64,000 bases of DNA from an uncultured Oscillospiraceae bacterium (GTDB taxonomy: Bacteria > Bacillota > Clostridia > Oscillospirales > Oscillospiraceae), in the NCBI GenBank assembly GCA_947629775.1, contig CANRFA010000003.1, positions 48,098 through 112,097 of the forward strand, read 5' to 3'. Every line of letters begins with the position of its first letter. Position 1 is the first letter of the stretch. Shown here one piece after another: positions 16,759-32,274 of this stretch. A program made the translations under genes and the position numbers. The notes beneath the pieces were generated by a model. It saw only the letters and a list, made by a program, of their open reading frames with translations, was not told the origin of the DNA and made no database searches.

Positions 16759-16787
16759 AGTATAGCTTCGAATTGGCAATTTGTCAA
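16759..16787 (-). promoter_or_regulatory. Promoter with box A operator overlapping the -35
   Basis: TTGACA-N17-TATACT; TTGGCAATTTGTCAA at 16773-16787; perfect TTGGCATTTTGCCAA at 16829-16843. Confidence 0.7.
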
Positions 16788-16887
16788 TCTGTAATATCAC
16801 AGTTTTCACGCCGTTCTCTCCTGCCTGATTGGCATTTTGCCAATACGGAAAGGCAGGTCTCCCCGCCTTTCCGTATTTCTCCCCCGG

Positions 16888-17067
16888 CTAAAAGCGCCCC
16901 TGCTCCCTGCACCAGTCCTGGTACTGCTCCTCCTCCCTGGCCCGGACGAGCTCCTCCAGCTCCGGCTCGTCCAGCCAGTTCATCTCCTCCTCCGTGCAGT
17001 ACATAGCCAGGTACCTGTACCGGCTGATGTACATGTCCAGCTCCATATCCGTCATCCTGAAGTTCAT
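16888..17067 (-). CDS. Small acidic phage protein (59 aa)
   Basis: Manual translation MNFRMTDMELDMYISRY...EQGRF; GAAAGGGG RBS. Confidence 0.65.
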   Translation of the reverse strand: MNFRMTDMELDMYISRYRYLAMYCTEEEMNWLDEPELEELVRAREEEQYQDWCREQGRF

Positions 17068-17103
17068 GTTACCATTCCCCTTTCTTTCAGACCCTGGGGC
17101 TGC

Positions 17104-17256
17104 TTACGCAGCCCCCGCCGGGATGTTGTAGGTCCAGGTGCAGCCCGCCATGAGGAGCGCCTCCTGGTAGTTGTCCAGGCTCTCCTGGTACTCCAGCTCG
17201 TCCCGTTCGCGCCTGTCCTCCAGGGTGGCTTCCAGGGTGTTGTAATCGTAGTTCAT
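17104..17256 (-). CDS. Small acidic cassette protein
   Basis: MNYDYNTLEATLEDRRERDELEY; conserved hairpin-RBS leader. Confidence 0.7.
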   Translation of the reverse strand: MNYDYNTLEATLEDRRERDELEYQESLDNYQEALLMAGCTWTYNIPAGAA

Positions 17257-17316
17257 TGTTACCTTCCTTTCTGCCCCGGTGGGGCGTCCGTGTTTCCTGT
17301 TTCCTTCGATGATGGG

Positions 17317-17345
17317 ATTATAACTCTGACCGCCCTTCCTGTCAA
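17317..17345 (-). promoter_or_regulatory. Cassette promoter
   Basis: GGGG-TTGACA-N17-TATAAT; box A at 17397-17411. Confidence 0.8.
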
Positions 17346-17444
17346 CCCCAAAAAGCAACTTTTTCAAAAAATTTTCAAGCGCTTATCGCCTTTTCAATGG
17401 CAATCCGCCAACCGCAGGGGTGGGTCCTGCCCGCCGGGGGTATG

Positions 17445-17681
17445 TCACAGGCCCGGCTTCAGCGCTACCCGGATCCCGAAGAACTGGAACCCGGCTCCGT
17501 CCATTTCCTCGCCGAACTCCCTGGCAATGGCGGGCAGGTCCGTTCCCGGCGCTACCAGAATCTCCACCAGGTCCCCTTCTGCCCGTACTCCCGTAAACTC
17601 CGTGGCCGGCGCTATCCACTGTATGTTGCGCACGACGTTTCCTGTATCGAGGAGCTTCTGAGCCAGCTCCATGCCGTTCAT
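17445..17681 (-). CDS. Phage hypothetical protein
   Basis: GGGAGG RBS; ORF track. Confidence 0.65.
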   Translation of the reverse strand: MNGMELAQKLLDTGNVVRNIQWIAPATEFTGVRAEGDLVEILVAPGTDLPAIAREFGEEMDGAGFQFFGIRVALKPGL

Positions 17682-17845
17682 ATCCGTTACCTCCCTGTAT
17701 GGCCGTCCGGTCCGCCGACGCCCCCAGGTCCTGGAGGCCCGGCGGTTCCCGTCTATTCAGCTGTCTGCTGTTTTCGGCCTCTTATGTTTCCACCCCTGGT
17801 CATTATGGCGAAGCCCCGTCGCCGTACAGCGACGGGGTGAAATGC

Positions 17846-18025
17846 TCAGACCCAGGAGATCTCCAGGTACGTGTTCTCGCCCACCTGGGTCCTGTAGTTC
17901 TCCTTGCCTTCCTTTTTCATCGCCCGGACGGCAGCCCGGAGAGCAGGGTCGCCCACTTTTTCGATCGCTTCCTTACGGAGGATCCGGCGGGTTTCCCCGT
18001 TCTCTGTCCAATAGTAACGAACCAT
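17846..18025 (-). CDS. Small basic phage protein (59 aa)
   Basis: Manual translation MVRYYWTENGETRRIL...LEISWV; promoter TTGATA-N17-TAGAAT at 18058-18086. Confidence 0.6.
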   Translation of the reverse strand: MVRYYWTENGETRRILRKEAIEKVGDPALRAAVRAMKKEGKENYRTQVGENTYLEISWV

Positions 18026-18169
18026 CTATGTTTCCATCCTTTCTTTTGTGTTCGTACATTCTACTCCGTTGGAGCTGATTTATCAACCCCATTTAAAAAT
18101 ATGTCTTCCGCCGGCCTGCGCAGCCCCCGCTGTTTTCACGCACCAGGGGCTGTCAGCCTGACGAGGCCA

Positions 18170-18394
18170 TTACATCTCCCGGATGGCTCTGGGGGTATGC
18201 ATACCAGCCTGGAGCATGGCCCTGAGTACTCTGTCCTGGTCTTCCGTGCAGAGGCCAAGGGCTGCCAGGTTCTCCCGGACAGAGCAGGAAAAGCAGACCT
18301 CTTCGCCGGTAACCCGGCCTCTGACGGTAGGACCCCAGGTGTAATAGCCACACCTGGGGCACTGCCAGAAGGTGGAGATGCGAGGTTCAGCCAT
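18170..18394 (-). CDS. Small zinc-finger-like phage protein
   Basis: CPRC...CFSC; coupled to the GGCT gene. Confidence 0.65.
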   Translation of the reverse strand: MAEPRISTFWQCPRCGYYTWGPTVRGRVTGEEVCFSCSVRENLAALGLCTEDQDRVLRAMLQAGMHTPRAIREM

Positions 18395-18851
18395 TGACTG
18401 CCACCCCCAGATCTCTTCCTCTTTCCCCCATATGCTTGAAGGAGTGCTCCACGGCCTTCCAGATGGCGTCCGGGTTGAATCCCATGTTGCGATACCCCTC
18501 CAGGCAGACAGCTACGTATCCCCGGCTGGGCGGTGCGATCTCCCGGTCCTCGTGCATGATATAGGCGAAGCAGTGCAGCTTGCCTACCCGGATATCCTGT
18601 TTGTAGTAGAACCGGGGGTAGCCCTCGTACCGGTCCAGGTTCCGCTCATCCTCCTCCGTAACCTGCCAGATGGCGACCGGAACCCGCCCGTCCCGCTGGC
18701 GCTCGATGGTCAGATAGCTGCCCGTCATGCTCCCCCGGAACCGCAGGGTCCAGCCCCGCAGGGTAGCCCCCCGGATCAGCCTCGCCCCCGGGCACCGGTA
18801 GGCCATCTGCTCCAGGTTCAGGTTGCTTCCGTATGCGATATAGTATTTCAT
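18387..18851 (-). CDS. Gamma-glutamylcyclotransferase (AIG2-like) family protein
   Basis: YIAYGSNL, RCPGA and LDRYEGYP motifs. Confidence 0.88.
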   Translation of the reverse strand: MKYYIAYGSNLNLEQMAYRCPGARLIRGATLRGWTLRFRGSMTGSYLTIERQRDGRVPVAIWQVTEEDERNLDRYEGYPRFYYKQDIRVGKLHCFAYIMHEDREIAPPSRGYVAVCLEGYRNMGFNPDAIWKAVEHSFKHMGERGRDLGVAVNG

Positions 18852-18906
18852 TGTTACCTTCCTTTCTCCCCCGCACCGGGGGCGTCCCTTCGTTTTTGAC
18901 GATGTG

Positions 18907-18935
18907 ATTATAACTCCATCAGCGTTATCTGTCAA
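18907..18935 (-). promoter_or_regulatory. Cassette promoter
   Basis: GGGG-TTGACA-N17-TATAAT; box A at 18985-18999. Confidence 0.8.
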
Positions 18936-19035
18936 CCCCGTTTGTGGATTTTTTGAAAAAAGTTTTTTGCCCTTTCCGTTTCCGCTGGCGGATTGCCAAC
19001 CCGGAGGCGTGATGTCTCCGGGTTGGCAGGGTATC

Positions 19036-19371
19036 TCAGAGGTTCCGGATAGAAGCCATGTAGTTCCGGTTCTTTTCCATGAGGAAGTTGTACCGCTCCC
19101 GGAAGGCGGGCGCCAGGGGGTGGTTGATGCGCTCCAGGGTCCGGGTCATCTTGTACTGGGACAGGTACCAGTAGGCGTAGGAGCCTCCCGTGATGAAATC
19201 CGGGATGATCCAGGTGGAGACGAACTCGCCCGCCGGGTCCGCCTTGGCGAGCCTGTAGAAGTCCCGCTGGTATTGGGTGGTCCCCCGGTAGTTCGTGGAG
19301 CCCCAGGGGCCGTCCGGGTACTCCTTCAACTCCTTGCTCCTCATTTCCCGGCTGATGTCGTAGGCCTTCAT
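19036..19371 (-). CDS. Cassette protein, paralogue of 29706-30065
   Basis: Shares the KMT..LE...HPLAPAFR.RYN motif. Confidence 0.75.
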   Translation of the reverse strand: MKAYDISREMRSKELKEYPDGPWGSTNYRGTTQYQRDFYRLAKADPAGEFVSTWIIPDFITGGSYAYWYLSQYKMTRTLERINHPLAPAFRERYNFLMEKNRNYMASIRNL

Positions 19372-19434
19372 ATTGTTACCGTCCTTTCTGCCCCCTTAAG
19401 GGGCGGTCCGTGTTTCCCTTCGTTTGATAATGGG

Positions 19435-19463
19435 ATTATACCTCTGAAGGCTGTTTCTGTCAA
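19435..19463 (-). promoter_or_regulatory. Cassette promoter
   Basis: TTGACA-N17-TATAAT; box B variant at 19484-19502; perfect box A at 19516-19530. Confidence 0.8.
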
Positions 19464-19657
19464 CCCGGTTCCGTAACTTTTTTCTATGAATCTTTTGCAT
19501 AGGTTTCTACCCGCTTTGGCAACTCGCCAACCCCCGAGGAGATCGCAGGCCTGCCCATCCTCCTGGGATTTATCGGAAAACCGTCCGTGACCCTCCGATA
19601 AACTGCCGGGCCTGGGTGTGACTGCCACCAGGTCCGGAACGATCCAGTACTGGGCCC

Positions 19658-19696
19658 CCGGCGTGCCGACGCTTCCAGATGCTCCCAATCCTGACT
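19658..19696 (+). repeat. 39-bp inverted repeat, left copy
   Basis: 34 of 39 bases match the reverse complement of 26165-26203 by manual alignment. Confidence 0.8.
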
Positions 19697-19879
19697 GATA
19701 CGGTCCATCTCCAGTTCCTGGATGGGGGTTACTGGCAGTATCTCCGCAGACACCCAGGGCTGGACCCCGGCGTCGCAGCGCTTCCAGTATTTGTAACTGA
19801 TTGCAGTTAAACCCTTTTTCTCGGGAGAGGGTCCAGGAATGGGTGTTGATGGGTTATTACCAACCAGAACCCATCGATT

Positions 19880-20465
19880 GGTGATACTGGAGGGATTGTA
19901 AGTAGCACCCATATAGCTCTGTTACTGGAGATATTCCATGATAATACCGGTTATGGGTGTACATGGACAATGTATAATATGGCTCCAGTCATGGGTTATC
20001 CTGGCTTTGATAGGTTTTCAACCCTGTTCTGGAGGTTACTGGACCATATGTAAATCAGATTGGAATATGGGTTGAACTGGAGCCATTGTAAATCAGGTCG
20101 CTTTCTGGGTGACACTGGAGAGAATGGAAATTCGGAAAGAATACGGGTTATGCTGGAGTCAATGGAAATCAGGTGACAATATGGGTAGAGCTGGCCTGAA
20201 TGTCATCAGCCTCCGGATTCGTTTTATCCTGGGTATCCTGGTATTCCAACCCATCAACGGGTGTTTACAGCTATCCTGGGTTTATAACCCATTATCGGAC
20301 CTTTATAGCCGTATTGGGCGTAATACCCATTATCGGGTTCTCGACCCATCACCGGGTGATTATAGCCATTTTGGGTTTGTAACCCATCACCGGGTTCCCA
20401 TGGCTGTTTTGGGTCTGCAACCCATTAACGGGTGATTATAGCCATCTTGGGTTGGATACCCATAT
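19880..20465. repeat. Degenerate 38-bp tandem array
   Basis: CTGGAG-like motif at 19887, 19925, 19963 ... 20229 in 38-bp steps, then about five 38-bp units containing TGGGT-N5-ACCCA. Confidence 0.75.
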
Positions 20466-20582
20466 TGAAAGCGGGTTGGGTGGACTGTCAGAAAGGCCCA
20501 TTTTCAGGGGCGATGGGTGTGAGCGGACGAACTGTAAATCGGACCCATCCAAAAGGCGGATGGGTTTATCTGGACAACGTGT

Positions 20583-20610
20583 AAGGGGGACCCAAGCGGG
20601 TCCCCCTTTT
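20583..20610. terminator. Intrinsic terminator downstream of the amidoligase
   Basis: GGGGGACCC/GGGTCCCCC stem flanked by AA and TTTT. Confidence 0.6.
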
Positions 20611-20645
20611 GTCGTTCCTGTTTTGTCCCCCCCTAGGGGGCTTCC

Positions 20646-21584
20646 TTACATGGAAGCCGCCTGGGTCTGCTGGAGGGAAATGGTGGGCAGGTTCCGGGTC
20701 ATGTGGTACATGGCGTTCTTAAAATCCTCCCCTTCGAACCCGTACCGCCGGAGCCACGCCCGCATGGTATCCCGGGGGCGGTTCGTGGTACAGGGGCTGG
20801 GCGTGGTATTGCGGGCGTATACGCTACCGCATACCATAGCAAGGGAAAACAGCACCCACGCCTTTACCATGCCCGCATGGAGCCCGTTTTTCTTGCCGTT
20901 CCCGGGTTCCTCAAAGTTGAACAGCCGGAACTCAATGGTTCCTTTTGTGAAAAGGGCGTGGAGGTTAACCATATGGTAACGGCTGGGATTGTAGTGTGCG
21001 GTCCGGGGCGTGTAGTGGTAGTTGGCGTACCACAAGTCGCTCACTTCTGCCAGGGACTGGGGGAAGTCCTTGTTCATACCCTCCAGGAAGTCCCTGTCCG
21101 CCCGGGCACAGTAGGTCATCCGGCTTTCCGGAATTCCGATGGCAGTAACTAACAGTTCCTCGTGGCACGCCATCGTATTGGAGAGGTTGCGAATGTCAGT
21201 TGGTCCCAGGTTTTTCCCGTCAATGTGAACGTGTACCCCGCAGCCGTTGGAGGCATAGGACTGCGCCCCCGCGCCCCGGAGGGCACGGATGACTTTCTGG
21301 AGGGTATCCATATCCTGGAGGTACAGGGGAGGCGTTGCCATTTCGCAGCCCCCGCTGTAATCGAGGTCGTGGAGGCTTGCGTCAGACATGAAGCTCCACT
21401 CGCGCCCCTGGGGGTCCGTCACCGCCCACCGGTCGTAGCTGGGTCCCGCATAGCGGACGGTCCCGCCCAACACGTCCCGGGCGACGTTTGCAGCCTTGTC
21501 CCGGGCGATGCCCGTCATTTCAATTTCCACGCCATAGGTGCGGTCCAGCATATCACGCTGGATTTTCATGGAGAGGTTCGTCAT
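20646..21584 (-). CDS. Putative amidoligase (Amidoligase_2 / COOH-NH2 ligase type)
   Basis: YGVEIEM, SDASL, CEMATPPL, CGVHVHI and KGTIEFRLF. Confidence 0.88.
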   Translation of the reverse strand: MTNLSMKIQRDMLDRTYGVEIEMTGIARDKAANVARDVLGGTVRYAGPSYDRWAVTDPQGREWSFMSDASLHDLDYSGGCEMATPPLYLQDMDTLQKVIRALRGAGAQSYASNGCGVHVHIDGKNLGPTDIRNLSNTMACHEELLVTAIGIPESRMTYCARADRDFLEGMNKDFPQSLAEVSDLWYANYHYTPRTAHYNPSRYHMVNLHALFTKGTIEFRLFNFEEPGNGKKNGLHAGMVKAWVLFSLAMVCGSVYARNTTPSPCTTNRPRDTMRAWLRRYGFEGEDFKNAMYHMTRNLPTISLQQTQAASM

Positions 21585-21643
21585 TGTTGCCATTCCTTTC
21601 TGCCCCCGTGGGGGGCGGTCCGTGTTCCCTGTTTACGTTGTAC

Positions 21644-21672
21644 ATTGTAACTCCGTCCGGCTTTCTTGTCAA
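21644..21672 (-). promoter_or_regulatory. Cassette promoter (amidoligase)
   Basis: GGGGG-TTGACA-N17-TACAAT. Confidence 0.8.
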
Positions 21673-21763
21673 CCCCCTTTTATAAGTTTTTTCAACTTTT
21701 TTACCGGAACGTTGACGCCCGCCGGGGTCTTGGGGGGCTTGTGTTCCCCCCTTGACTGTCTAC

Positions 21764-21792
21764 ATTCTAACTCGCACCGCCTTTTCTGTCAA
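21764..21792 (-). promoter_or_regulatory. Second cassette promoter with no ORF of its own
   Basis: TTGACA-N17-TAGAAT; box B at 21811-21831. Confidence 0.75.
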
Positions 21793-22137
21793 CCCCAAAT
21801 GATAACTTTTTTCATGCAACTTCTGCATGAATTCGGGGGTTTCTATCGATTCCATGCATATATGAACGCCGGGGCCTGGTCCGGGGCTTAAATTACCATA
21901 AACTTGTAAAAATGGGGGGGCGGGGTCCCGACGCTTCCAGTATCACCCATTTTGGGCATAGTTACCATTTGTCCATCAACACCCATACGGTCCGTTTCCA
22001 CCCAAATGGGTTCTTCTTCCGATTTTCCATGTATCTGACATGGCAGCTATCACCCATGGGCGCTCCACCCATTTTCCATGGAACTGACATGGGTGTTTTC
22101 GGTAATCTCCAGCCCGCTGTCAGTTTTCCGTTATTCT

Positions 22138-22809
22138 CCATTGGGTCTGTTGCCCATGGACCATAACGTTAAACGACCCAGGAACCTCCATTGGGTTTCT
22201 GTCCCATGGATCATACCGTCACTAAACCCAGCTTTGCCCAATGGGTTCATAACCCATGGACCTTACAGTCAGACAACCCATCCTCCTCCAATGGGTTTAC
22301 AACCCATGGAGCATATCGTGAAACGACCCAGGTTTCTCCACTGGGTCTGTTGCCCATGGACCGTACCGTCAGGCAACCCAGGAACCTCCATTGGCTCTAC
22401 AACCCATGGGTCGTATCGGGATTTAACCCATCATCCTCCATTGGATTTACAACCCATGGGTTGTACCGTAAAACGATCCATCCTCCTCCAATGGGTCCCT
22501 GACCCATGGGTCGTGCCGTTAAGTAACCCAGAAACACCCACTGGGCCTCCAACCCATGGGTCGTAGCGGGATTCAACCCAGGTTTGCCCAATGGATTTAC
22601 AACCCATGGACCGTATCGTCAGACAACCCAGGTTTCCCCAATGGGTGCCTGACCCATGGGTTGTACCGTAAAACGACCCAGGAACCTCCATTGGGTCTAC
22701 GACCCATGGACCATAGCGTTAAACAACCCAGCTTTCCCCAATGGGTCTACAACCCATGGAGCGTACCGCCATTCAACCCATCATCCTCCAATGGGTTCCT
22801 GACCCATGG
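22138..22809. repeat. 50-bp tandem array, block 1 (13 full units plus a partial unit)
   Basis: CCAWTGG every 50 bp from 22138 to 22788; unit CCAWTGGGT-N5-ACCCATGG...ACCCA. Confidence 0.95.
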
Positions 22810-23145
22810 ACCTTGAACCCATTTTGCCGAAAACTGACATGGACCAATTATCCATGGGCCTTCCTCCCATTTTCCATCAAACTGACATGGAAAATCGGTC
22901 CATGGGTGATACAGCCAATCTCCAGAGAACTGACATGGCTATATCCCCCATGGGTTGTTAACCCAATCTCCAGGAAAATGACATGGGTATTTCCTCCATG
23001 GACCTTATCCCCAATTTCCATCAAACTGACATGGCGAAACAACCCATGGGTGAACGACCCATTTCCCATCGAACTGACATGTAAGATAAACCCATGGGTT
23101 ATATCGGTAATTCCCATCGAACTGACATGGGTGCAAGGCCCATGG
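22804..23145. repeat. 48-bp tandem array (7 units)
   Basis: CCATGG at 22804, 22852, 22900, 22948, 22996, 23044, 23092 and 23140, with AACTGACATGG between. Confidence 0.95.
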
Positions 23146-23189
23146 AGTTTTTCGGTAATCTCCAGCCCGTTGCCAGTTTTCCAGTATCC

Positions 23190-23558
23190 TACATGGGTCT
23201 ACCGCCCATGGACCGTACCGTCATTCAACCCAGGTTCCTCCAATGGGTTTACAGCCCATGGACCATACAGACACATAACCCAGAAACCCCCATTGGGTTC
23301 ATAACCCATGGAGTGTACCGTCAGACGACCCAGAAAGCTCCATTGGGTCTATCGCCCATGGACCGTACCGTCAAACGGTCCAGGAACACCCATTGGGTTC
23401 ACTGCCCATGGAGCGTAAAGGAATCCATCCCAATACCACCCATTGGGTTTACAACCCATGGCCTGTATCGCCAAGCAACCCAGGAACACCCATTGGGTCT
23501 ATCACCCATGGGTCGGGATCCCATTTACCGAAAATTGTCATGGCCTGATTTTCCATGG
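23190..23558. repeat. 50-bp tandem array, block 2 (6 full units), then one 48-type unit
   Basis: Unit starts at 23190, 23240 ... 23490. Confidence 0.92.
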
Positions 23559-23799
23559 GTTATGGCTCCAGTCGCCCCGTGTTGCGGACCCTGTTTTTTG
23601 TTGGGTCGCATGGACAGTATTTCCTTTTCGGACCTTTTTATCAGACTTTCCACCAACTTACAATCGGTGGAATACGTTAAGCCCCGGCTGGAAAATCCTG
23701 GCCGGGGCGCCACCGCTGGGAATTGCTGGAGGTATTGCCTTTTGGGTCCGGTTCCCGCCCCGGGGGCGTATGCCCCGGGGGCGGGTTCCTGTTTCCGCT

Positions 23800-24048
23800 T
23801 TACCTGTAGTAGGTTCCGTGAATGTCCGCCATTTCTTCCATTAACTCAAAGGAGATGGGGGTATCTCCCAGTCCTGCCGTAAACGCCCATTCGTCCACGG
23901 CGCTGTAGATATCGTCCCTGTCGTATTCGTTTCCATGGATTTCCATCCATTCCAGCCTTTCCAACAGGTTGTTGAAGTCCTTTTCCGTTACGTACTTCTT
24001 TACCATTTTGGCGGCTTTCTTCCCCATTTTGCCCAAGTACTTTTTCAT
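23800..24048 (-). CDS. Cassette protein (VDEWA family)
   Basis: Conserved leader and RBS; ORF track. Confidence 0.7.
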   Translation of the reverse strand: MKKYLGKMGKKAAKMVKKYVTEKDFNNLLERLEWMEIHGNEYDRDDIYSAVDEWAFTAGLGDTPISFELMEEMADIHGTYYR

Positions 24049-24165
24049 TATATTTCATTCCTTTCTGCCCCTATGGGGCGTTCCCGTTACGTTATGGGGC
24101 GTTCCCGTTTCCCGTTTTGCCCCATGCCCGCCCCGGGGCGTATGCCCCGGGGCTATCCGTTTCTT

Positions 24166-24471
24166 TCAGATGTTGCACGGCATACAGCCGTCCCACAGCG
24201 CCCGCTCTTCCCGGTAGTCTTCCATTTCCTGGAGGATATCCCGGTAGGTATCCGTCATGGCGTCCGCCAACGTCCGGGCGATGTCAGTAGCTTCCAGCCC
24301 CATGTCGTCCGCCCATTCGTTCACGATATAGGCGACGTCCTCCTCGTCGTATTCGTGGGGGGCGTTTTCCACGTTGTACAGCCGGCGGTACAGGTACCCG
24401 GCGTTCCCGTTGTCCACGATGTCCCGCACGATAGCCCGCGCCCTGTTCATCATCCTGTTCATGTTCTTCAT
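24166..24471 (-). CDS. Acidic cassette protein (VNEWA family)
   Basis: Conserved leader; D/E-rich. Confidence 0.75.
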   Translation of the reverse strand: MKNMNRMMNRARAIVRDIVDNGNAGYLYRRLYNVENAPHEYDEEDVAYIVNEWADDMGLEATDIARTLADAMTDTYRDILQEMEDYREERALWDGCMPCNI

Positions 24472-24550
24472 TGTTTACCGTCCTTTCTGCCCCCTATGGG
24501 GCGTTCCCCCCGGAAAGGGGGGCGCTGTTTGTTTCCTGTTTACGTTGTAC

Positions 24551-24579
24551 ATTGTAACTCCACCCGGCCATTCTGTCAA
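24551..24579 (-). promoter_or_regulatory. Cassette promoter
   Basis: TTGACA-N17-TACAAT; box B at 24598-24618; box A at 24630-24644. Confidence 0.8.
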
Positions 24580-24687
24580 CCCTAAATGATAACTTTATTC
24601 ATGCAACTTTTTCATGAATTCCATTACCCGTGGCGTTTTGCCAACCCGTGCCCGTAAAGGCACGGGCTGGCATTTCCTGGAGGGGGC

Positions 24688-25077
24688 TTACGCTTCCCAG
24701 TATCTGGAGTCGTCCCCGTCCTCCTTGCTGTAAATTTCGTCCAGGTGCCATTCCAGTTCCTGGGCATCCCGGTTCCACTTCCTGGAAAGGGCGCCATACC
24801 CGGCGGACGCCAGCCACGTCGCCTGGGCATCCGTAAATTCCCAGACGGCTTTCACAAAAGCGGGGTCCCAACTGTCCAGCCCCTCTTCCGTGTAGTTCTG
24901 TCCGTCAAGGGCGCCGGGGTCCGTTTCCGCCATGCGGACGAAAATCCGGGGATACACTTCCCACACGAATTCGTCCTCCCGCCCCCTGTCGTGGAAAAAC
25001 CCGTGGCTGTTTTCCAGTACAGCGCCCCAGTCAATGGGGTCGAGGGCGTTCATGCCGTTCATGTTGATGGCGTTCAT
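24688..25077 (-). CDS. Acidic cassette protein
   Basis: Conserved leader; D/E/W-rich. Confidence 0.75.
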   Translation of the reverse strand: MNAINMNGMNALDPIDWGAVLENSHGFFHDRGREDEFVWEVYPRIFVRMAETDPGALDGQNYTEEGLDSWDPAFVKAVWEFTDAQATWLASAGYGALSRKWNRDAQELEWHLDEIYSKEDGDDSRYWEA

Positions 25078-25143
25078 TGTTTACCGTCCTTTCTGCCCCC
25101 GTGGGGGGCGTCCGTGGGGTTCCTGTTCCTGTTTACGTTGTAC

Positions 25144-25172
25144 ATTCTAACTCCGTCCTGCCATTCTGTCAA
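25144..25172 (-). promoter_or_regulatory. Cassette promoter
   Basis: GGGGG-TTGACA-N17-TAGAAT. Confidence 0.8.
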
Positions 25173-25425
25173 CCCCCTTTGCTAACTTTTTTCAAAAAAA
25201 TTTTCATGCGCATGCCCGTTGCCGTTGCCGGAACGGCAACTGACAAAAGCTGGACCGATAGGATCCGCCCTTCCATCCGCCCGTATTTTCCATTTACTTG
25301 GAATGGGTTCAATCTCCATGGACCGATTTTCCATGCCCTTTCGTTGGAAGCGCCTGCCATATATCCAGTAGCTGCCATGGTCCATCTGTCTGTCAGAATC
25401 GGCAGTTTCTGGAGGTCCATTTTCT

Positions 25426-25740
25426 ACCCATCAGGTCCATCAATTAACAACCCGATTTTCACCCATTAGGTCCAGCTTTTTACAACCCATTTCAGACCCA
25501 TCAGGCCCATCAACTGACATCCCATTTTGGACCCACCAGGTCCATCTATTAACAGTCCATTTTGGACCCGGATGGTCCATTTGCTGACAACCCATTTTCT
25601 ACCCATCCGGTCCATCAACTTACATCCCATTTTCCACCCATTGACTCCAGCTCCTTACAACCCTTTTTCGAGCCATCAGGTCCATCTATTAACAGTCCAT
25701 TTTTGCCCCATCAGGTCCACCTTCTGACAACCCACTTTTC
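25426..25740. repeat. 35-bp tandem array (9 units)
   Basis: Consensus ACCCATCAGGTCCATC..TTAACA.CCCATTTT.. repeated with an exact 35-bp period. Confidence 0.92.
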
Positions 25741-26164
25741 TTCCGAAAATACCATCTGATGTCATCCCAAAAAGGCCTATCTTCTCCAGTACCTGGGTGA
25801 CCCATTTTGGATACAGAATGTCCATCAAGTGGCAAAAGGTCCCTTCGATGGGAAATGCCAGTTCCCACCCCGCACACCCAGTAACCGGAATTTCCTCCGC
25901 CAAACTCCAGCCTCCGATTTTTTGGACATTTTACAATTAACTGACATTTCAGAAGAGCAAGCTGAAAATATCAGTTTCTGACAATCCCTCCGATTTTTAG
26001 CAAATTCCATCCTGCTCGAAAATACTCCAGCCATTTACAATTTCTCCGATTTTCCTCCAGTTTCCATCCATATAGCATCTTCTCCAGCAAGTGCCATTTC
26101 CTCCGCTACGGTCCATTCTCCAGGCCACTTGTAAACGCTCCAGAAACTGGGGGGTCCAGGCTGG

Positions 26165-26203
26165 AGTCATAATTGGAAGCAACTGGAAGCGTCGGTACGC
26201 CGG
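26165..26203 (-). repeat. 39-bp inverted repeat, right copy
   Basis: Reverse-complement match to 19658-19696. Confidence 0.8.
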
Positions 26204-26331
26204 CCCCCCAGAAACTCCAGTCCCTGGCAGCCCTGGAGTACATTTGCCCAGGCCCCGGATTCCGTTGGCGTTCTGCCAATATCTGCCTCGATTCATGCAA
26301 AAGATTCATGAATAAAAGTTGGCTTTTGGGG

Positions 26332-26360
26332 TTGACAGAAAAGCCCCGCAGAGTTAGAAT
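26332..26360 (+). promoter_or_regulatory. Cassette promoter
   Basis: TTTTGGGG-TTGACA-N17-TAGAAT; box A at 26265-26279; box B at 26292-26312. Confidence 0.82.
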
Positions 26361-26448
26361 ACCAACATCGAAAGGGAACACCCCTCCACCACGAACCGCC
26401 CCGCAGGGGCGGGCACGGACGCCCAAAGGGCAGAAAGGAAAGATAACA

Positions 26449-26703
26449 ATGTCCACCATCAACAAGCTCATGAACGCCATCCGCACCGCCACCACCGGCA
26501 TGAACGCCCACGACATCGCCCCCCTGGAGAACTACCTGGGCTACCTCGTGGAGGCTATCCACGGCGGGGACATGGAGCCCTGCGACGCCTACCTCCTGGC
26601 TGCGGAAGCCGTCAACGTGTGGGCGGATGACGTGAACGCCCCCACCGCCACCGTGGATACCATGGTGGACACCCTGGTGGCTACCGCCCTGACGCTTGCC
26701 TGA
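26449..26703 (+). CDS. Cassette protein (VNVWA family)
   Basis: Conserved leader; start MSTINK. Confidence 0.72.
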   Translation: MSTINKLMNAIRTATTGMNAHDIAPLENYLGYLVEAIHGGDMEPCDAYLLAAEAVNVWADDVNAPTATVDTMVDTLVATALTLA

Positions 26704-26865
26704 GCCGGGCAAGCCCCCGGGGGATTCCCCCCGGGGGACCCCTGCCGGGGCTGGCGGAGAATGCCGGAGGAATCTCCAGCATCTGCCAGGCCCGGCACGC
26801 CGGCCGGCAGCTCTTCCATCAAACGGAAGTATCAGCCGTTCTATGACAGAAAGGAAGTAACTGAC

Positions 26866-27162
26866 ATGCGACTTGTGTATTTGGATACCGTCCGGGATAA
26901 GGTATACGCCTGGGGTATCCGCTACCCCATCCCCATTGACGAGCTGGACCGCCTGTGGAAAGATGCCTATGAGCTGATGGATTCCATCGTCAGCAAGACC
27001 AGGAAATGGATCTGTGTGGAATCCCCCTGGGTATACGTTGACGAGGTAATGGGCTGCGTGAATCAATGGGGGCAAAGGAACAGCCTCAACGTAGAAGACA
27101 TTTCCCAGGAACTGGGTGACTATCTGGCAGACGCCCTGAACGCCCTGGAGTTTGTTTCCTGA
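26866..27162 (+). CDS. Cassette protein (VNQW family)
   Basis: AGAAAGGA RBS; start MRLVYLD. Confidence 0.68.
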   Translation: MRLVYLDTVRDKVYAWGIRYPIPIDELDRLWKDAYELMDSIVSKTRKWICVESPWVYVDEVMGCVNQWGQRNSLNVEDISQELGDYLADALNALEFVS

Positions 27163-27270
27163 CAGAATCATCCATCCCGTTGGCGGGTACAGCCCTCCAG
27201 GGATTGCCATCCCGCCATATCCTCCGAGAAGGCGCATGAAAATTTTTTCGAAGAAAGTTGCTTTTTGGGG

Positions 27271-27299
27271 TTGACAGACTAGCCAGTCAGAGTTAGAAT
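27271..27299 (+). promoter_or_regulatory. Cassette promoter
   Basis: TTGACA-N17-TAGAAT. Confidence 0.8.
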
Positions 27300-27357
27300 A
27301 CCATCATCGAAGGGAAAGACAGGGACGCCCCACAGGGGCAGAAAGGTAAGGTAATAT

Positions 27358-27603
27358 ATGGACGTGAATTGCAGGAAGATGTTCGCCTCCGCTGTGGAGA
27401 CCAGCCTGAAGGGGCTGGACGTCCCCAGCCAGGCCGTCAACGAGCTGGTGGATACCATGTACCGGACGGTGGAGATGGGCGAAATGGAGGGCTGGGGGGA
27501 CCTGGAAATGTTCCGGCGGATCCGCTGGAGCGCCAGGGACTGGCAGGAAGGCCAGGGACTGTATATCCCCTGGCTGGAGGATGATATGGCTGCCCTCGTG
27601 TAA
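27358..27603 (+). CDS. Acidic cassette protein
   Basis: Conserved leader. Confidence 0.72.
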   Translation: MDVNCRKMFASAVETSLKGLDVPSQAVNELVDTMYRTVEMGEMEGWGDLEMFRRIRWSARDWQEGQGLYIPWLEDDMAALV

Positions 27604-27714
27604 AGCCCCCCCAAAGCCACCCCCGGTAACGACCCCGGTATACGCCGGGGGTGGCAATCCGCCATCCATGCCTGAAACTTTCTGAAATTTTTCAAAGAAA
27701 GTTACCTTTTGGAG

Positions 27715-27743
27715 TTGACAAAAGCGGAGCCTGGAGCTATAAT
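27715..27743 (+). promoter_or_regulatory. Cassette promoter
   Basis: TTGACA-N17-TATAAT; box A at 27651-27665. Confidence 0.8.
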
Positions 27744-27808
27744 CACCAGCGTAAACAGGAAGGAAACAGACGGACCGCCCCCCTGCGGGGCAGAAAGGAA
27801 CGGTAACA

Positions 27809-28222
27809 ATGAAGAACGAAAACAGACTGGACAGCCTCTTTGAGGAACTGGTACCCGCCAGCGGAAAGGCGGACAGCCTCGCCGGGGAGCTCGTCCGGGC
27901 GACCTCCCGGATTGGGTTCCGTTTCCTGAATGACGGAGACCAGCTGGGGCGGGGCTACGGGCGGGAAACGTGCAACCCCGCCGGGCGCTTTATCCTGGCG
28001 AAGACGCCCCGTGAAATTGGCGACCTCGTAGCTGCCATGTGGTACACGGAGGACGAAAACGCCTACGAGGCGCAGCTGGATACCCTGGTGGGCAAAGTTG
28101 CGGAGTACGTGGAAACGAACCCCGGCCTGCGCAACACGCCCACGGAGGATATGTGGAGCTTCCGGGATACCTGGGAGGACGTGGACGAAGACGAATACGA
28201 GGACGGGGACGAGGACTGGTAA
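27809..28222 (+). CDS. Phage/MGE hypothetical protein with an acidic tail
   Basis: VPASGKADSLAGELVRA..RIGFRFLNDGD; ends DVDEDEYEDGDEDW. Confidence 0.78.
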   Translation: MKNENRLDSLFEELVPASGKADSLAGELVRATSRIGFRFLNDGDQLGRGYGRETCNPAGRFILAKTPREIGDLVAAMWYTEDENAYEAQLDTLVGKVAEYVETNPGLRNTPTEDMWSFRDTWEDVDEDEYEDGDEDW

Positions 28223-28361
28223 GCACTGGATCCCCCGTTCCGTCAGGGAAAGCCCCCTGCCATCCCCGGCACAAGGATACACAGCCCGCCGGGGATGGCA
28301 ATCTGCCAATATCAGCCAGGATCCATGAAAAAGATTCATGAATAAAAGTTAGCGTTTGGGG

Positions 28362-28390
28362 TTGACAGGATTATCCCCCGGAGTTATAAT
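28362..28390 (+). promoter_or_regulatory. Cassette promoter
   Basis: TTGACA-N17-TATAAT; box A at 28295-28309; box B at 28322-28342. Confidence 0.82.
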
Positions 28391-28453
28391 TCCATTGTAA
28401 ACGAAAGGGAAACAAACGGACCGCCCCAACGGGCAGAAAGGCAAGGTAAAACC

Positions 28454-28780
28454 ATGGAGAAGTTCAACAGCTACACGACCAGCCACATCGTCCCCTGCGT
28501 GAAGGAAAACGCCCCCGGCATGGACGGCGACGACCGGCAGCTCCTCTACCACGAACTGGACCGCCTCGTGGAGTACTTCATCGAGAACGACCCCCCGGAG
28601 GATGATATCCGCCCCTGCGTTATCGAAACCTTGAACGAGTGCGTGGACATGAACGACCCGGACGTTATGAACGCCCTGACGGACAAGCTGGAGGATGCCT
28701 TTATGGATATCCTCTACGAGGAGAAAATGTGGCGCCTCGAAGCCCGCCTGTGGCACGGACCCAATCCCTGGGGCATCTGA
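28454..28780 (+). CDS. Acidic cassette protein
   Basis: Conserved leader; D/E-rich. Confidence 0.75.
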   Translation: MEKFNSYTTSHIVPCVKENAPGMDGDDRQLLYHELDRLVEYFIENDPPEDDIRPCVIETLNECVDMNDPDVMNALTDKLEDAFMDILYEEKMWRLEARLWHGPNPWGI

Positions 28781-29018
28781 GAGCCCCTGGGATCCCCCCG
28801 GGAGAACAGCCTCCCGGGGGCGGGAACTGGAGGCTGCTGTGATATGGCCCATTTCCTGCCAGAATCGGCAGCCCGGCCAGGTATTTCCAGCCCCTCCCCC
28901 TGGGACAACGGCAGGATGGTACGAAGCTTCCGAAAATCGGCAGTTCCGGATGCTGCTGTCAATCCGCTCTATCCGCTAACTTCCCGAAAATTTTTTCTGA
29001 AAAAGTTTACTTTTGGGG

Positions 29019-29047
29019 TTGACAGGAAAACGGTTCAGAGTTATAAT
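29019..29047 (+). promoter_or_regulatory. Cassette promoter
   Basis: TTGACA-N17-TATAAT. Confidence 0.82.
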
Positions 29048-29115
29048 CCTATCATCAACAGGGAACAGGAAACACGGACCGCCCCGCAGACGGGGCAGAA
29101 AGGACGGTAACAAAT

Positions 29116-29442
29116 ATGAACATCGCCAATATCAACTGGGACGCCATCTGCACCCCCTCCGCCCTGTACGGCAAGGAGTGGACCTACCTGCGGGGGGAGG
29201 CATGGAAGAAGGACTTCCTGGACGAGGTAGAGAAATACAACAGCATGGGCAAAGCCCCCTACCACGTCACCCCAGTGGACACCGGATTCCGCAGCGACAA
29301 CGTCTTCGTTGTTTCCCGTATCTGGAACCTCGTCCTGAAGCAGGCGGAGCTCCTGTATGAAAACGGATACGACGACCTTGGCGAAATCTGGATGGACGAC
29401 GCCGTAGGGCTGGAGTCCTACATGGATACCTTCGAGGACTGA
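29116..29442 (+). CDS. Acidic cassette protein
   Basis: Conserved leader. Confidence 0.75.
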   Translation: MNIANINWDAICTPSALYGKEWTYLRGEAWKKDFLDEVEKYNSMGKAPYHVTPVDTGFRSDNVFVVSRIWNLVLKQAELLYENGYDDLGEIWMDDAVGLESYMDTFED

Positions 29443-29610
29443 TCGAAGGTATCCCCTTCCAGGGGCCGGGACCCATTTCCTGGGGGGCCAGGGACGCCGG
29501 CCCCCACTCCGGAAAATGGCGGGGCCTGTTGCGGGCCCGGATGTTGCCGTTTTGCCATTCATCCCAGAAACCTATGCAAAAGATTCATGAATGAAAGTTG
29601 CTTTTTGGGG

Positions 29611-29639
29611 TTGACAGAATTAGCCCCCAGAGTTAGAAT
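29611..29639 (+). promoter_or_regulatory. Cassette promoter
   Basis: TTGACA-N17-TAGAAT; box A at 29544-29558; box B at 29571-29591. Confidence 0.82.
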
Positions 29640-29705
29640 AGCACCATCAAAAGAGAGCAGGAAACAAGCGGACCGCCCCACAGGGGCAGAAAGGTAAGGT
29701 AAACA

Positions 29706-30065
29706 ATGGACAGGAACATCTACCCCATCTGGAACGCAATGGCTACCCGCAGTGACGAGACCCAGGGGAACATGTACGGGCGGTACGAAGGGACCCCCCA
29801 GTTCCTGGAGGACTTCCGCCACCTTGCGGAAGTGGACCTCAAGGAGGGCGACGGCTTCTACGTGAAAACGTGGATGCAGCCCGCCATCCCCGGGCTGTGG
29901 ACCCTGGACCAGCTCAAAATGACCCACATCCTGGAGGGCATGGGACACCCCCTCGCCCCCGCCTTCCGGCAGCGCTACAACGAAACCCTGGACCTCCTCC
30001 GGGTCCGGCTCCGGGAATACCGGAGCCTCCTGGAGTCCCGGCGCAGCCGGAAGCACGCAGCCTGA
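29706..30065 (+). CDS. Cassette protein, paralogue of 19036-19371
   Basis: Shared HPLAPAFR.RYN motif. Confidence 0.75.
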   Translation: MDRNIYPIWNAMATRSDETQGNMYGRYEGTPQFLEDFRHLAEVDLKEGDGFYVKTWMQPAIPGLWTLDQLKMTHILEGMGHPLAPAFRQRYNETLDLLRVRLREYRSLLESRRSRKHAA

Positions 30066-30377
30066 GCCAATACCCCCCCGCCCGGCGGAGCCCTGCCGGG
30101 CGGGGTTGCCGTTTTGCCATCGTGGATGCAGATTCATGCAGAAGATTCATGGATTTAATTTACATTCGGGGGATACTCAGCCAGATCCAGGAAGGTGGAG
30201 GATCCTCCGATAATTCCCATCCGCCGGCAGATGGGTTATGTTTCGTGTACTGTTAAATGCTTCCAGCGCTGCGACGCCGGCCCCCCTGGCTCCTGTTTTC
30301 CCCGAAACTGCATGATGGGCTGTCGGGGCGGGCAGGCGGGCATGAAAAAAGGGAGGTGGATGTCCACCTCCCCGTTA

Positions 30378-30638
30378 TCAGACAGCCTCCTGAAGGCTGA
30401 TGGGTCCCCGCTCCTGGTCAGCCCGGAACGCCGGGATGGAGTCAGCCAGGGACTTTTCCACGCCGGGTGGGAGATACTTGGAGATTCTCCCAACCAGGCA
30501 GGGGTAGGAATACGACCGCTTCTCCCCCAAAGCCTCCTGGATGACGTTCAGGCACTCGTCTTTGCTGTACAAGCGGCTGATATCCTCCTCGCTCAGGTAC
30601 ACGTGCAGGTTCAGGGTTACGGAATAGCACTCTTTCAT
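30378..30638 (-). CDS. Phage hypothetical protein
   Basis: ORF track; AAGGAAGG RBS. Confidence 0.55.
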   Translation of the reverse strand: MKECYSVTLNLHVYLSEEDISRLYSKDECLNVIQEALGEKRSYSYPCLVGRISKYLPPGVEKSLADSIPAFRADQERGPISLQEAV

Positions 30639-30674
30639 GTGATACCTTCCTTTCCTCCGCAGTGCGGACCCTGC

Positions 30675-31325: not shown

Positions 31326-31378
31326 TGCGGATGCCTCCTTTCAGAATGTGCCCTCGTTACCTCCGGGGCGGGCCGTTC

Positions 31379-31537: not shown

Positions 31538-31678
31538 ATCAGGGTCCTCCTTTGTCTGTGTCCCCCCTTCAGGGTGATGACAGTATAACTCTGAAGGCCG
31601 TTTGTGTCAACCCCAAATGTAAACTTTTTTATCGGAAATTTTTGTGCGAACTCACAATGATGATGGCATTCTGCCAAT

Positions 31679-32230: not shown

Positions 32231-32274
32231 TCTCTCCCTCTCCCCGTAAAGCCGGTAGGTCAGCTTTCTGCGTA

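What the first reader, a model, noticed from the sequence alone, without database searches (positions are those of the whole stretch)
22050..23560. Higher-order 50/48-bp satellite, apparently non-coding, inside a prophage
Seen: 13 units of exactly 50 bp (22138-22787), then 7 units of 48 bp (22804-23139), then 6 more 50-bp units (23190-23489). The same ~35-bp junction (TTTTCGGTAATCTCCAGCCCG.TG.CAGTTTTCC) precedes both 50-bp blocks, at ~22095 and ~23150, so the layout is [48][junction][50] twice. Unit length and the CCAWTGG/CCATGG/ACCCA anchors are fixed while the bases between them vary, so nearly every unit carries a CCATGG site. A 50-bp period cannot keep a reading frame. Inference: selection acts on spacing, as expected for a protein-binding lattice (centromere-like partition site, origin or packaging scaffold) or a processed RNA array. 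The 48-mer reads TGG-N9-CCA-TGG-N9-CCA, two 9-nt variable segments per unit, which is loosely reminiscent of TIGR-type dual-spacer arrays.
Basis: partly seen in the sequence, partly recalled or inferred. Interest (0 to 1): 0.88.

Follow-up and report, generated by a model that had tools for sequence, protein, structure and literature searches.

The report
Phased orphan repeat arrays in a prophage
A 1.6-kb stretch of a 104-kb prophage is made of about 30 non-coding repeat units of exactly 50 or 48 bp, in which short palindromic anchor words are kept and the bases between them are scrambled; this most likely marks a row of protein-binding sites, but nothing like it was found elsewhere and its function is unproven.

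Summary
Window 21940-23560 holds two 48-bp units, a junction, 14 x 50 bp, 7-8 x 48 bp, the same junction, 6-7 x 50 bp and a final 48-bp unit. All units are in register without a single indel.

Conservation is bimodal. The anchors CCAWTGGGT, CCCATGG, ACCCA and CTGACATGG are nearly invariant, while the segments between them approach randomness.

No ORF crosses the array and no Pfam or Rfam family matches it. Hairpin pairing shows no covariation.

The element is a ~104-kb Brigit-like prophage with a large serine recombinase. The array lies in an arm of about 15 strong-promoter cassettes that encode mostly acidic orphan proteins. It abuts a 45-nt module shared by three cassette promoters, and the other two of those promoters also carry a related array (38 bp and 35 bp).

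Tests argued against several readings:
- Partition: no ParA on the prophage.
- Origin: a likely origin sits in the replisome-organiser gene.
- attP mimicry.
- Restriction decoy or Chi.
- ToxI-like antitoxin.
- TIGR: no Nop protein, and the flanks have the wrong polarity.

No relative exists in any collection searched.

My best reading, at about 0.35, is a DNA-level lattice of operator-like sites with a local regulatory or architectural role.

The parts
21913..21952 (-). Conserved module (ATTGGG.GCA.CTGGAAGCGTCGGnACnCCG..CCCC) at the promoter-proximal end of the array. The same module lies upstream of promoters P19463(-) and P26332(+).
   Evidence: Inverted and direct repeat pairs I13 and I25; three-way alignment A2.
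21940..22005 (.). Degenerate leading units built from the words of the 35-bp array (CCATTT, ACCCAT, GGTCC).
   Evidence: Read directly from the sequence.
22006..22101 (.). Two 48-bp-type units ahead of the first junction.
22096..22137 (.). Junction J1: TTTTCGGTAATCTCCAGCCCGCTGTCAGTTTTCC plus 8 nt.
   Evidence: the same 34-mer recurs at 23148.
22138..22837 (.). Block A: 14 units of exactly 50 bp. Consensus CCAWTGGGTnTACAACCCATGGAnCGTACCGTCAnACAACCCAGnATCCT.
22804..23147 (.). Block B: 7 units of exactly 48 bp, reading CCATGG-N9-CCCAWTTyCCATCrAACTGACATGG-N9. The two 9-nt segments are near-random.
   Evidence: pairwise identity of the N9 segments is 0.31 and 0.36.
23148..23189 (.). Junction J2, a copy of J1.
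23190..23511 (.). Block C: 6.5 units of 50 bp.
23506..23560 (.). Terminal 48-bp-type unit.
23745..23790 (-). GC-rich hairpin right after the stop of the 82-aa gene (23800-24048, minus strand). It has no U-run, so read-through into the array on the minus strand is possible.
21644..21792 (-). Two tandem consensus promoters (TTGACA-N17-TAGAAT and TTGACA-N17-TACAAT) that fire away from the array into the amidoligase gene (20646-21593, minus strand).
19880..20465 (.). Related array with a 38-bp period. Its second half carries TGGGT-N5-ACCCA palindromes.
25417..25769 (.). Related array with a 35-bp period (CCATTTTnnACCCATCAGGTCCATCnnnnTRACAnC). It is very G-poor on the + strand (G 11%, C 35%).

Best explanation
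The array is a DNA-level lattice of operator-like protein-binding sites.

**Anatomy of the proposed sites**
- Each 50-bp unit carries a 22-bp imperfect palindrome, CCAWTGGGT-N5-ACCCATGG. Its two TGGGT/ACCCA half-sites sit one helical turn apart. A third ACCCA lies 24 bp further on.
- Each 48-bp unit carries CATGG-N9-CCATG and (T)GG(GT)-N5-(AC)CCA. Here the half-sites are kept, the spacer length is kept, and the spacer sequence is free.

**Proposed mechanism**
- A sequence-specific dimeric protein, phage- or host-encoded and not identified, would occupy every unit. That would coat about 1.5 kb with roughly 30 dimers.
- This array and its two sister arrays each abut the same 45-nt module upstream of a strong cassette promoter. 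I therefore infer a local role: silencing, insulating or titrating for the cassette arm. I do not infer partition, replication or packaging.

**Shown versus inferred**
- Shown: the anatomy, the constraint on anchors and spacing, the absence of coding, the absence of pairing covariation, and the position relative to promoters.
- Inferred: that a protein binds, that it binds DNA rather than RNA, and what the binding achieves.
For: 1. Anchors are nearly invariant while the segments between them are scrambled. In the 50-bp units 21 columns are at least 90% conserved and 8 are at most 50% conserved. The variance of column identity is 4.6 times that of a uniform-rate model, with 0 of 2000 simulations reaching it. 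The 48-bp units give 0 of 2000 as well.
2. There is no indel in 19 aligned 50-bp units at about 70% pairwise identity, nor in the 48-bp units. Geometry is therefore constrained.
3. The conserved words are palindromic, with half-sites 10 bp apart. TGGGT-N5-ACCCA occurs 16 times in the 3.07-Mb genome, and all 16 are in these arrays.
4. The palindrome pairs in 90.6% of cells, but covariation is no better than in shuffles (0.079 against 0.082; 294 of 500 shuffles reach it). The three G8 variants are not compensated. Each arm is thus kept for its sequence, not for pairing.
5. In the 48-bp unit the variable parts have a fixed length (9 nt) and near-random sequence (identity 0.31 and 0.36). That is the pattern of a spacer between two half-sites.
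6. The three arrays sit just distal to one shared module, about 150-260 bp upstream of P19463, P21792 and P26332. The cassette promoters themselves carry other N5/N9-spaced palindromes, such as TTGGC-N5-GCCAA.
7. No promoter points into the array, and RNA-folding z-scores are modest at -2.2 to -4.2.
Against: - No binding protein is identified. The adjacent gene products are orphans and mostly very acidic (pI 4.1-4.7), so they are not obvious DNA binders.
- The four array types have different periods (35, 38, 48 and 50 bp). No single helical phasing is preserved across them.
- The 35-bp array has no palindrome.
- The non-anchor bases are strongly C-over-G on the + strand, with GC skew -0.2 to -0.5. 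A purely symmetric DNA site does not explain that, and it may point to a strand-specific (RNA or ssDNA) constraint.
- Transcription could not be examined.
- No relative exists in which conservation of the sites could be checked.
Confidence: 0.35

Rival explanations
1. The array acts as RNA. It is transcribed, for example by read-through from the P24579 cassette on the minus strand. The repeated hairpins (CCAUGGGU-loop-ACCCAWUGG; CAUGG-N9-CCAUG) would then bind or sponge a protein, or be cut into 48/50-nt units.
For: - The hairpin after the upstream gene has no U-run, so read-through is possible.
- The arms pair in 90.6% of cells.
- The minus strand of the 48-bp block folds with z = -4.2.
- The strong strand asymmetry of the non-anchor bases suits a strand-specific molecule.
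- Tandem 34-50-nt RNA units are known from type III antitoxins and from TIGR arrays.
Against: - No compensatory changes occur, and mismatches are left unrepaired.
- G-U-compatible mismatches show no strand preference.
- The minimum-free-energy folds are irregular, not one hairpin per unit.
- There is no dedicated promoter or terminator.
- There is no Rfam match, even at E of 1 or less.
- The 35-bp sister array cannot form G-C stems (G 11%).
Confidence: 0.22
2. The array is a neutral or selfish satellite. Slippage or unequal crossing-over amplified a unit in a dispensable part of a large accessory arm, and it has no function.
For: - There are four arrays with related words but different periods, plus a block-level duplication ([48]-J-[50] twice). 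This looks like satellite turnover.
- The arm is not present in the nearest relatives.
- No partner protein or RNA signal was found.
Against: - A neutral array at about 30% divergence should carry indels and evenly spread substitutions. Observed are 0 indels and a bimodal pattern, with anchors at least 90% kept and N9 segments at near-random identity (0 of 2000 simulations).
- The array is identical in unit number in three assemblies from two samples.
Confidence: 0.12
3. The array is a centromere-like partition site, analogous to sopC of plasmid F, for an extrachromosomal phase of the phage.
For: - The anatomy resembles sopC, which from my own knowledge is 12 tandem 43-bp units each with a palindromic core.
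- The phage encodes two ParB_N-domain proteins.
Against: - None of the four ParA-type ATPases of the genome is on the prophage contig.
- A search for ParM found nothing, but its control did not ring either, so that test is uninformative.
- The phage integrates through a large serine recombinase, and clean att junctions are visible.
- The ParB_N proteins sit beside the terminase. One is fused to what reads as a SAM-binding methyltransferase motif. Amidoligase-carrying phages from metagenomes, which are densely coded around that gene, show a ParB_N/methylase gene near the terminase as well.
Confidence: 0.05
4. The 48-bp block is a guide-RNA-type array of a TIGR-like or new kind. Two conserved repeats (24 nt and 6 nt) alternate with two 9-nt variable guide segments.
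For: - The grammar matches TIGR arrays: two alternating repeats with two 9-nt spacers, and both repeats share the same termini (PMC12045711).
- The N9 segments are near-random.
- TIGR systems occur in phages and in Flavonifractor.
- Stem-loop TIGR loci can be split into sub-arrays.
Against: - TIGR spacers are flanked 5'-CCA...UG-3'. Here they are flanked 5'-UGG...CCA-3' on both strands.
- No chain of C-N9-D intervals at 18-nt spacing exists anywhere in the window.
- The in-phase CCA-N10-CG and CCA-N11-TG intervals of the 50-bp units cover conserved columns, not variable ones.
- There is no Nop-domain protein in the genome.
- N9 pairs match the host genome no more often than shuffled controls.
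- The neighbouring proteins are only 82-129 aa.
Confidence: 0.05
5. Block B encodes a protein repeat. In + frame 1 the 48-bp unit reads as a 16-aa repeat, LTW-xxx-PW-xxx-P(F/I)xx(K/E). Each 9-nt variable segment equals three codons, and the frame is open across all units (ORF 22741-23304).
For: - There are 0 stops in that frame across block B.
- N9 equals three codons, and 48 equals 16 codons.
Against: - The chance that 48 random codons of this composition are open is 0.086, which is not compelling.
- Differences in the conserved part are highest at codon position 1 (0.23, against 0.10 and 0.14). That is the opposite of a coding signature.
- There is no ribosome-binding site or promoter on the + strand.
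- There is no Pfam hit.
- There is no homologue among 1.84 billion representative proteins except the window's own ORF.
- The 50-bp blocks share the same anchors and cannot keep a frame.
Confidence: 0.04

Closest known systems
sopC centromere of plasmid F, and similar tandem-repeat centromeres or iteron arrays such as P1 incA and P4 crr (described from my own knowledge)
   Same: - Head-to-tail units of fixed length.
- Each unit has a short palindromic or iterated protein-binding core.
- The array is non-coding and sits on a mobile replicon.
   Different: - The array here is three to five times longer.
- Its units are only about 70% alike, with scrambled inter-anchor bases.
- It comes in four periods.
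- No partner ATPase or initiator is encoded nearby. ParA is absent from the prophage, and the likely origin is elsewhere.
TIGR arrays of TIGR-Tas systems (PMC12045711; bioRxiv 10.64898/2026.09.09.750476)
   Same: - In the 48-bp units, two different conserved repeats alternate with two 9-nt variable segments.
- Both repeats share the same end motifs.
- It occurs in a phage, and the locus is split into sub-arrays.
   Different: - The polarity of the flanks is inverted: UGG-N9-CCA instead of CCA-N9-UG.
- The period is 48 nt, not 36.
- There is no Nop/Tas protein.
- The 50-, 38- and 35-bp arrays lack the dual-spacer grammar.
Type III antitoxin arrays (ToxI and relatives)
   Same: Tandem non-coding units of 34-50 nt, sometimes copied by phages.
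   Different: - There is no ToxN gene in this genome.
- ToxN occurs in 2 of 24 genomes of the same genus, and the 36-nt repeats found beside one of them are unrelated in sequence.
- ToxI units are few and nearly identical, whereas here there are about 30 diverged units.
Intergenic mosaic repeats of bacteria, such as pneumococcal BOX (boxB 45 bp in tandem), Neisseria NIME/dRS3 and REP/BIME (described from my own knowledge)
   Same: Non-coding arrays in which short inverted-repeat anchors are kept and the intervening sequence varies.
   Different: Those elements are dispersed in many copies over a chromosome. This one is confined to one 6-kb stretch of one prophage and is absent from the rest of the genome and from 112 genomes of the genus.

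Membership tests
TIGR-Tas array | A Tas protein with a Nop domain is encoded next to the array. | tested here: not met
   PF01798 finds nothing in the whole genome at E of 0.1 or less, while the archaeal controls ring. Only sub-threshold hits appear in 4 of 401 genomes of the family. Divergent Tas proteins could escape this model.
TIGR-Tas array | Two 8-12-nt variable spacers per unit. | tested here: inconclusive
   This is met in the 48-bp units, which have two 9-nt near-random segments. It is not met in the 50-, 38- and 35-bp units.
TIGR-Tas array | Each spacer is flanked 5' by box C (CCA and variants) and 3' by box D (UG/CG), in chains at about 18-nt spacing. | tested here: not met
   The flanks are UGG...CCA on both strands. 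There is no chain of 4 or more such intervals in the window. In-phase C-N-D intervals fall on conserved columns.
Tandem-repeat partition centromere (sopC/parC type) | Tandem units with a palindromic or iterated binding core. | tested here: met
Tandem-repeat partition centromere (sopC/parC type) | A partition NTPase (ParA, ParM or TubZ) and a centromere-binding protein are encoded on the same replicon. | tested here: not met
   Of the PF13614 hits, 4 are in the genome and none is on the prophage contig C3. The ParM test was uninformative because its control did not ring. TubZ was not tested.
Iteron-type replication origin | The site lies beside or inside the initiator gene and next to the helicase-loader module. 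| tested here: not met
   The organiser-like gene (DUF6291) has 28 copies of a 10-bp-phased repeat and is followed by an IstB/DnaC-like loader. It lies at C3:159364-161400, far from the array.
Type III toxin-antitoxin (ToxIN) antitoxin array | A ToxN/AbiQ-family toxin gene lies directly downstream, or a cognate toxin is present in the host. | tested here: not met
   PF13958 is absent from this genome. It is present in 2 of 24 genomes of the same genus, and the 36-nt repeats found beside one of them are unrelated.
Pseudo-attP sites of the large serine recombinase | Similarity of the unit to the phage arms of attL/attR. | tested here: not met
   The junction arms are AATTTGTGCAA in inverted orientation. 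No TGGGT or CCATGG words are present there.
Protein-coding tandem repeat | An open frame across the array, a codon-position bias of substitutions, and homologues. | tested here: not met
   There are 9-28 stops per frame. Codon position 1 is the most variable. There are no Pfam hits or homologues.

The most novel reading that the evidence does not exclude
The arrays are a new kind of nucleic-acid device in a phage anti-defence arm. There are two forms this could take:
- A guide-type array with the TIGR grammar but mirrored flanks (UGG-N9-CCA) that works with an unrecognised small protein.
- A decoy or sponge (DNA or RNA) that soaks up a sequence-specific host factor, alongside the acidic, DNA-mimic-like cassette proteins.
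Probability: 0.07. Interest if true: 0.85.

Novelty: new variant of a known kind. Interest (0 to 1): 0.55.

Why it matters
Phage genomes are compact, so about 2.6 kb of non-coding arrays kept in strict register, with anchors under clear constraint, is unusual.

If a protein lattice forms here, it would be a large cis-acting nucleoprotein element. It would control or insulate a battery of very strong promoters that drive orphan, mostly acidic (possibly anti-defence) proteins in a phage of gut-type Oscillospirales. That would be a regulatory design not described for temperate phages.

If it instead acts as RNA, it would add a new class of repeat-spacer-like array.

In either case the anchor-and-fixed-spacer grammar gives a concrete search pattern for similar elements that repeat finders tuned to high identity overlook.

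Tried and rejected
**Searches for relatives (all negative)**
- blastn against the phage and plasmid collections found nothing.
- The unit pattern gave only single chance hits in IMG/VR and in GTDB genomes.
- A period-tolerant CCCATGG x3 scan of JGI metagenomes found only unrelated satellites.
- blastn in 60 related genomes gave two 42-bp chance hits without arrays.
- The flanking amidoligase has only the identical copy and relatives at 48% identity or less, which sit in densely coded siphovirus contigs.
- The adjacent 111-aa protein is an orphan.
- The cassette-promoter pattern gave only chance hits in IMG/VR.
- Major-capsid-protein relatives (FP_Brigit, G014, G477) share neither the arm genes nor the arrays: a repeat scan of G014 and G477 found no such array, and FP_Brigit is densely annotated over both stretches read, 1-30000 and 44000-61716.
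- Spurious ORFs translated from the arrays have no relatives among 5.8 billion clustered proteins or 1.84 billion representative proteins.

**Hypotheses tested and rejected**
- Coding.
- TIGR.
- A ToxI mimic.
- A ParA-type centromere.
- A replication origin.
- Pseudo-attP sites.
- A restriction-site decoy or Chi-like array. CCATGG, TGGGT and CTGGAG are neither avoided nor enriched in the host, with observed/expected ratios of 0.82-0.98.
- Known RNA families.
- An RNA hairpin maintained by covariation.

- No structures were predicted. The neighbouring proteins are orphans, so single-sequence models would not have been reliable.
Full report
**1. The observation**

- Printed in register, 22138-22837 gives 14 lines of 50 bp.
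- 22804-23187 gives 8 lines of 48 bp.
- 23190-23539 gives 7 lines of 50 bp.
- Two further 48-bp units lie at 22006-22101, and one lies at 23506-23553.
- A 34-nt junction recurs at 22096 and 23148.

TRF reports periods of 50, 48 and 50, with 0% indels in the first block. MAFFT aligns 19 of the 50-bp units in 50 columns without a gap. A one-unit pattern matches 17 times, against 0.00 in shuffles.

Mean pairwise identity is 0.70 for the 50-bp units and 0.64 for the 48-bp units. Identity at lag 3 is only a little higher than at other lags (0.74 against 0.67-0.71). The "higher order" is therefore mainly the block layout [48]n-junction-[50]n repeated twice.

Two ENA metagenome contigs from two samples carry the same array with the same number of units. 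They have 1 and 3 SNPs, all outside the arrays. The array is therefore not an assembly artefact.

**2. Context**

The window lies in contig C3 of a 3.07-Mb, 62% G+C draft genome. From window 15842 to about 119800 (C3:167897) the G+C content drops to 50-60%. This stretch is a prophage of about 104 kb.
- It is inserted in an Fe-ADH gene, with inverted AATTTGTGCAA arms at the junctions.
- It has a large serine recombinase at the far end.
- Its TerL carries a Hint-like insert.
- It encodes RecT, an organiser-like protein (DUF6291) followed by an IstB/DnaC-like loader, and two ParB_N proteins.
- Lysin, holins and tail fibres lie at 57-64 kb.
- Its major capsid protein is 53% identical to that of Faecalibacterium phage FP_Brigit. 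FP_Brigit has the same gene order and is densely coded over both stretches read, 1-30000 and 44000-61716.

The array lies in the 16-34-kb arm.
- This arm holds about 15 cassettes. Each has a near-consensus TTGACA-N17-TAnAAT promoter, a conserved leader and a strong ribosome-binding site.
- The cassette products are orphans with no Pfam or PHROG match. The exceptions are an amidoligase and a GGACT protein.
- Most products are very acidic, with pI 4.1-4.7.

Sister arrays lie at 19880-20465 (38 bp) and 25417-25769 (35 bp) and use the same words.

All three arrays end at a shared 45-nt module, ATTGGG.GCA.CTGGAAGCGTCGGnACnCCG..CCCC. This module lies about 150-260 bp upstream of promoters P19463, P21792 and P26332.

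**3. What the array is not**

*Coding.*
- Every frame has 9-28 stops over 21900-23900, and the ORFs in it have no Pfam match.
- The 48-bp block is open in one + frame and reads as a 16-aa repeat, with each N9 equal to three codons.
- However, the chance of that openness is 0.086, and differences in the conserved part peak at codon position 1.
- There is also no ribosome-binding site, and the only similar protein among 1.84 billion representatives is the window's own ORF.

*Known RNA.* There is no Rfam match at the gathering thresholds or at E of 1 or less.

*TIGR.*
- Published TIGR arrays have 9-nt spacers flanked CCA...UG and a Nop-domain Tas protein (PMC12045711; bioRxiv 10.64898/2026.09.09.750476).
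- Here the two 9-nt variable segments of the 48-mer are flanked UGG...CCA on both strands.
- A chain test modelled on TIGRFinder finds nothing in the window.
- The in-phase CCA-N10-CG and CCA-N11-TG intervals of the 50-mer cover conserved columns.
- PF01798 is absent from the genome.
- N9 pairs match the genome no more often than shuffled ones.

*ToxI-like antitoxin.* There is no ToxN here. ToxN occurs in 2 of 24 genomes of the genus, and the 36-nt repeats found beside one of them are unrelated.

*Centromere.* The four ParA-type genes of the genome lie on other contigs.

*Origin.* A run of 28 copies of a 10-bp-phased repeat lies inside the organiser gene next to the loader. This is the usual place for a phage origin.

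*attP mimic.* The att arms are unrelated to the array words.

*Restriction decoy or Chi.* The anchor words are neither avoided nor enriched in the host.

**4. What the sequence does show**

Conservation is sharply bimodal.
- In the 50-bp units 21 columns are at least 90% conserved and 8 are at most 50% conserved.
- The variance of column identity is 0.041, against 0.009 under a uniform-rate star model (0 of 2000 simulations).
- The 48-bp units give 0.042 against 0.020 (0 of 2000).
- Their N9 segments are at near-random identity, 0.31 and 0.36.

With roughly 200 differences from consensus and no indel, neutral decay is unlikely. This step is an inference from general indel-to-substitution ratios.

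The anchors are palindromic: CCAWTGG, CCATGG and TGGGT-N5-ACCCA. The last occurs 16 times in the genome, and all 16 are in these arrays.

The palindrome pairs in 90.6% of cells. Even so, covariation equals that of shuffles, and broken pairs are not repaired. G-U-compatible mismatches show no strand preference.

RNA-fold z-scores are modest (-2.2 to -4.2), and the folds are irregular.

This pattern fits sequence-specific recognition of each arm better than selection for pairing. Fixed-length, free-sequence spacers between kept half-sites are what dimeric DNA-binding proteins produce.

**5. Best explanation and its limits**

I read the arrays as a DNA-level lattice of operator-like sites, with about 30 in this array. 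They sit at the distal edge of the upstream regions of three strong cassettes. I infer that they silence, insulate or titrate within the cassette arm. My confidence is about 0.35.

Several points count against this reading:
- No binder is known.
- The periods differ among the arrays.
- The 35-bp array has no dyad.
- The filler bases are strongly C-over-G on the + strand, which hints at a strand-specific constraint.

An RNA role (0.22) cannot be excluded, because expression data were out of reach. The remaining readings rate lower:
- neutral satellite, 0.12
- centromere, 0.05
- guide array, 0.05
- coding repeat, 0.04

**6. Novelty**

No relative was found in:
- the phage, plasmid, IMG/VR, GTDB or JGI collections
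- 112 genomes of the genus or 400 genomes of the order
- protein space, searched through the arrays' spurious ORFs

.

The nearest relatives by capsid lack the whole arm. They say nothing about conservation of the period.

The closest known anatomy is a tandem-repeat centromere or iteron array such as sopC. The closest grammar for the 48-bp block is TIGR. In both cases a defining feature was tested and not met.

I class the array as a new variant of a known kind (protein-binding repeat arrays), of moderate interest. It is a real, constrained and orphan element whose function remains to be shown.

Noticed in passing
window 16759-33925 and 53647: There are about 15 cassettes. Each has a near-consensus TTGACA-N17-TAnAAT promoter, an upstream AAAGTT..TTTGGGG box, a TTGGC-N5-GCCAA or TTCATG-N9-CATGAA palindrome, a leader hairpin (CCGCCCC-N4-GGGGCAG) and a strong ribosome-binding site. 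They drive small orphan proteins, most with pI 4.1-4.7. The arrangement recalls host-takeover or anti-defence modules.
   Followed up: partly
C3:160833-161110 (window coordinates 112736-113013, outside the window): There are 28 copies of a 10-bp-phased repeat (CCACTGGnnn) inside a DUF6291 organiser-like gene. They encode a 10-aa repeat, SGxQSQPVxT. An IstB/DnaC-like loader follows directly. This is probably the phage replication origin.
   Followed up: partly
C3:148848-150719 (outside the window): The terminase large subunit carries an insert of about 170 aa that begins CVEMNTPVLMGDG. It gives a weak Hint-domain match, so it is a probable intein.
   Followed up: no
window 15842 and C3:167897: These are the prophage junctions inside an Fe-ADH gene. 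The phage arms are AATTTGTGCAA in inverted orientation around a GACGCC core. The large serine recombinase lies at the far right end, and prophage length is about 104 kb.
   Followed up: partly
window 19036-19371 / 29706-30065, and 23800-24048 / 24166-24471 / 28454-28780: Two paralogue families occur among the cassette proteins. The 111-aa and 119-aa proteins are 44% identical. The 82-, 101- and 108-aa proteins are about 32% identical. None has a homologue in the 5.8-billion-protein collection at word-sharing sensitivity.
   Followed up: partly
window 21644-21792: Two complete cassette promoters lie in tandem, 120 bp apart, ahead of the amidoligase gene. The first cassette is empty, with a promoter and leader but no gene.
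   Followed up: no
window 46886-47189: A 166-bp tandem duplication is present (1.8 copies, 78% identity) in the arm of minus-strand genes.
   Followed up: no
L232 (G005:C108, same genus): A ToxN-family gene lies next to three 36-nt tandem repeats. This is a probable type III toxin-antitoxin locus in a related genome.
   Followed up: partly
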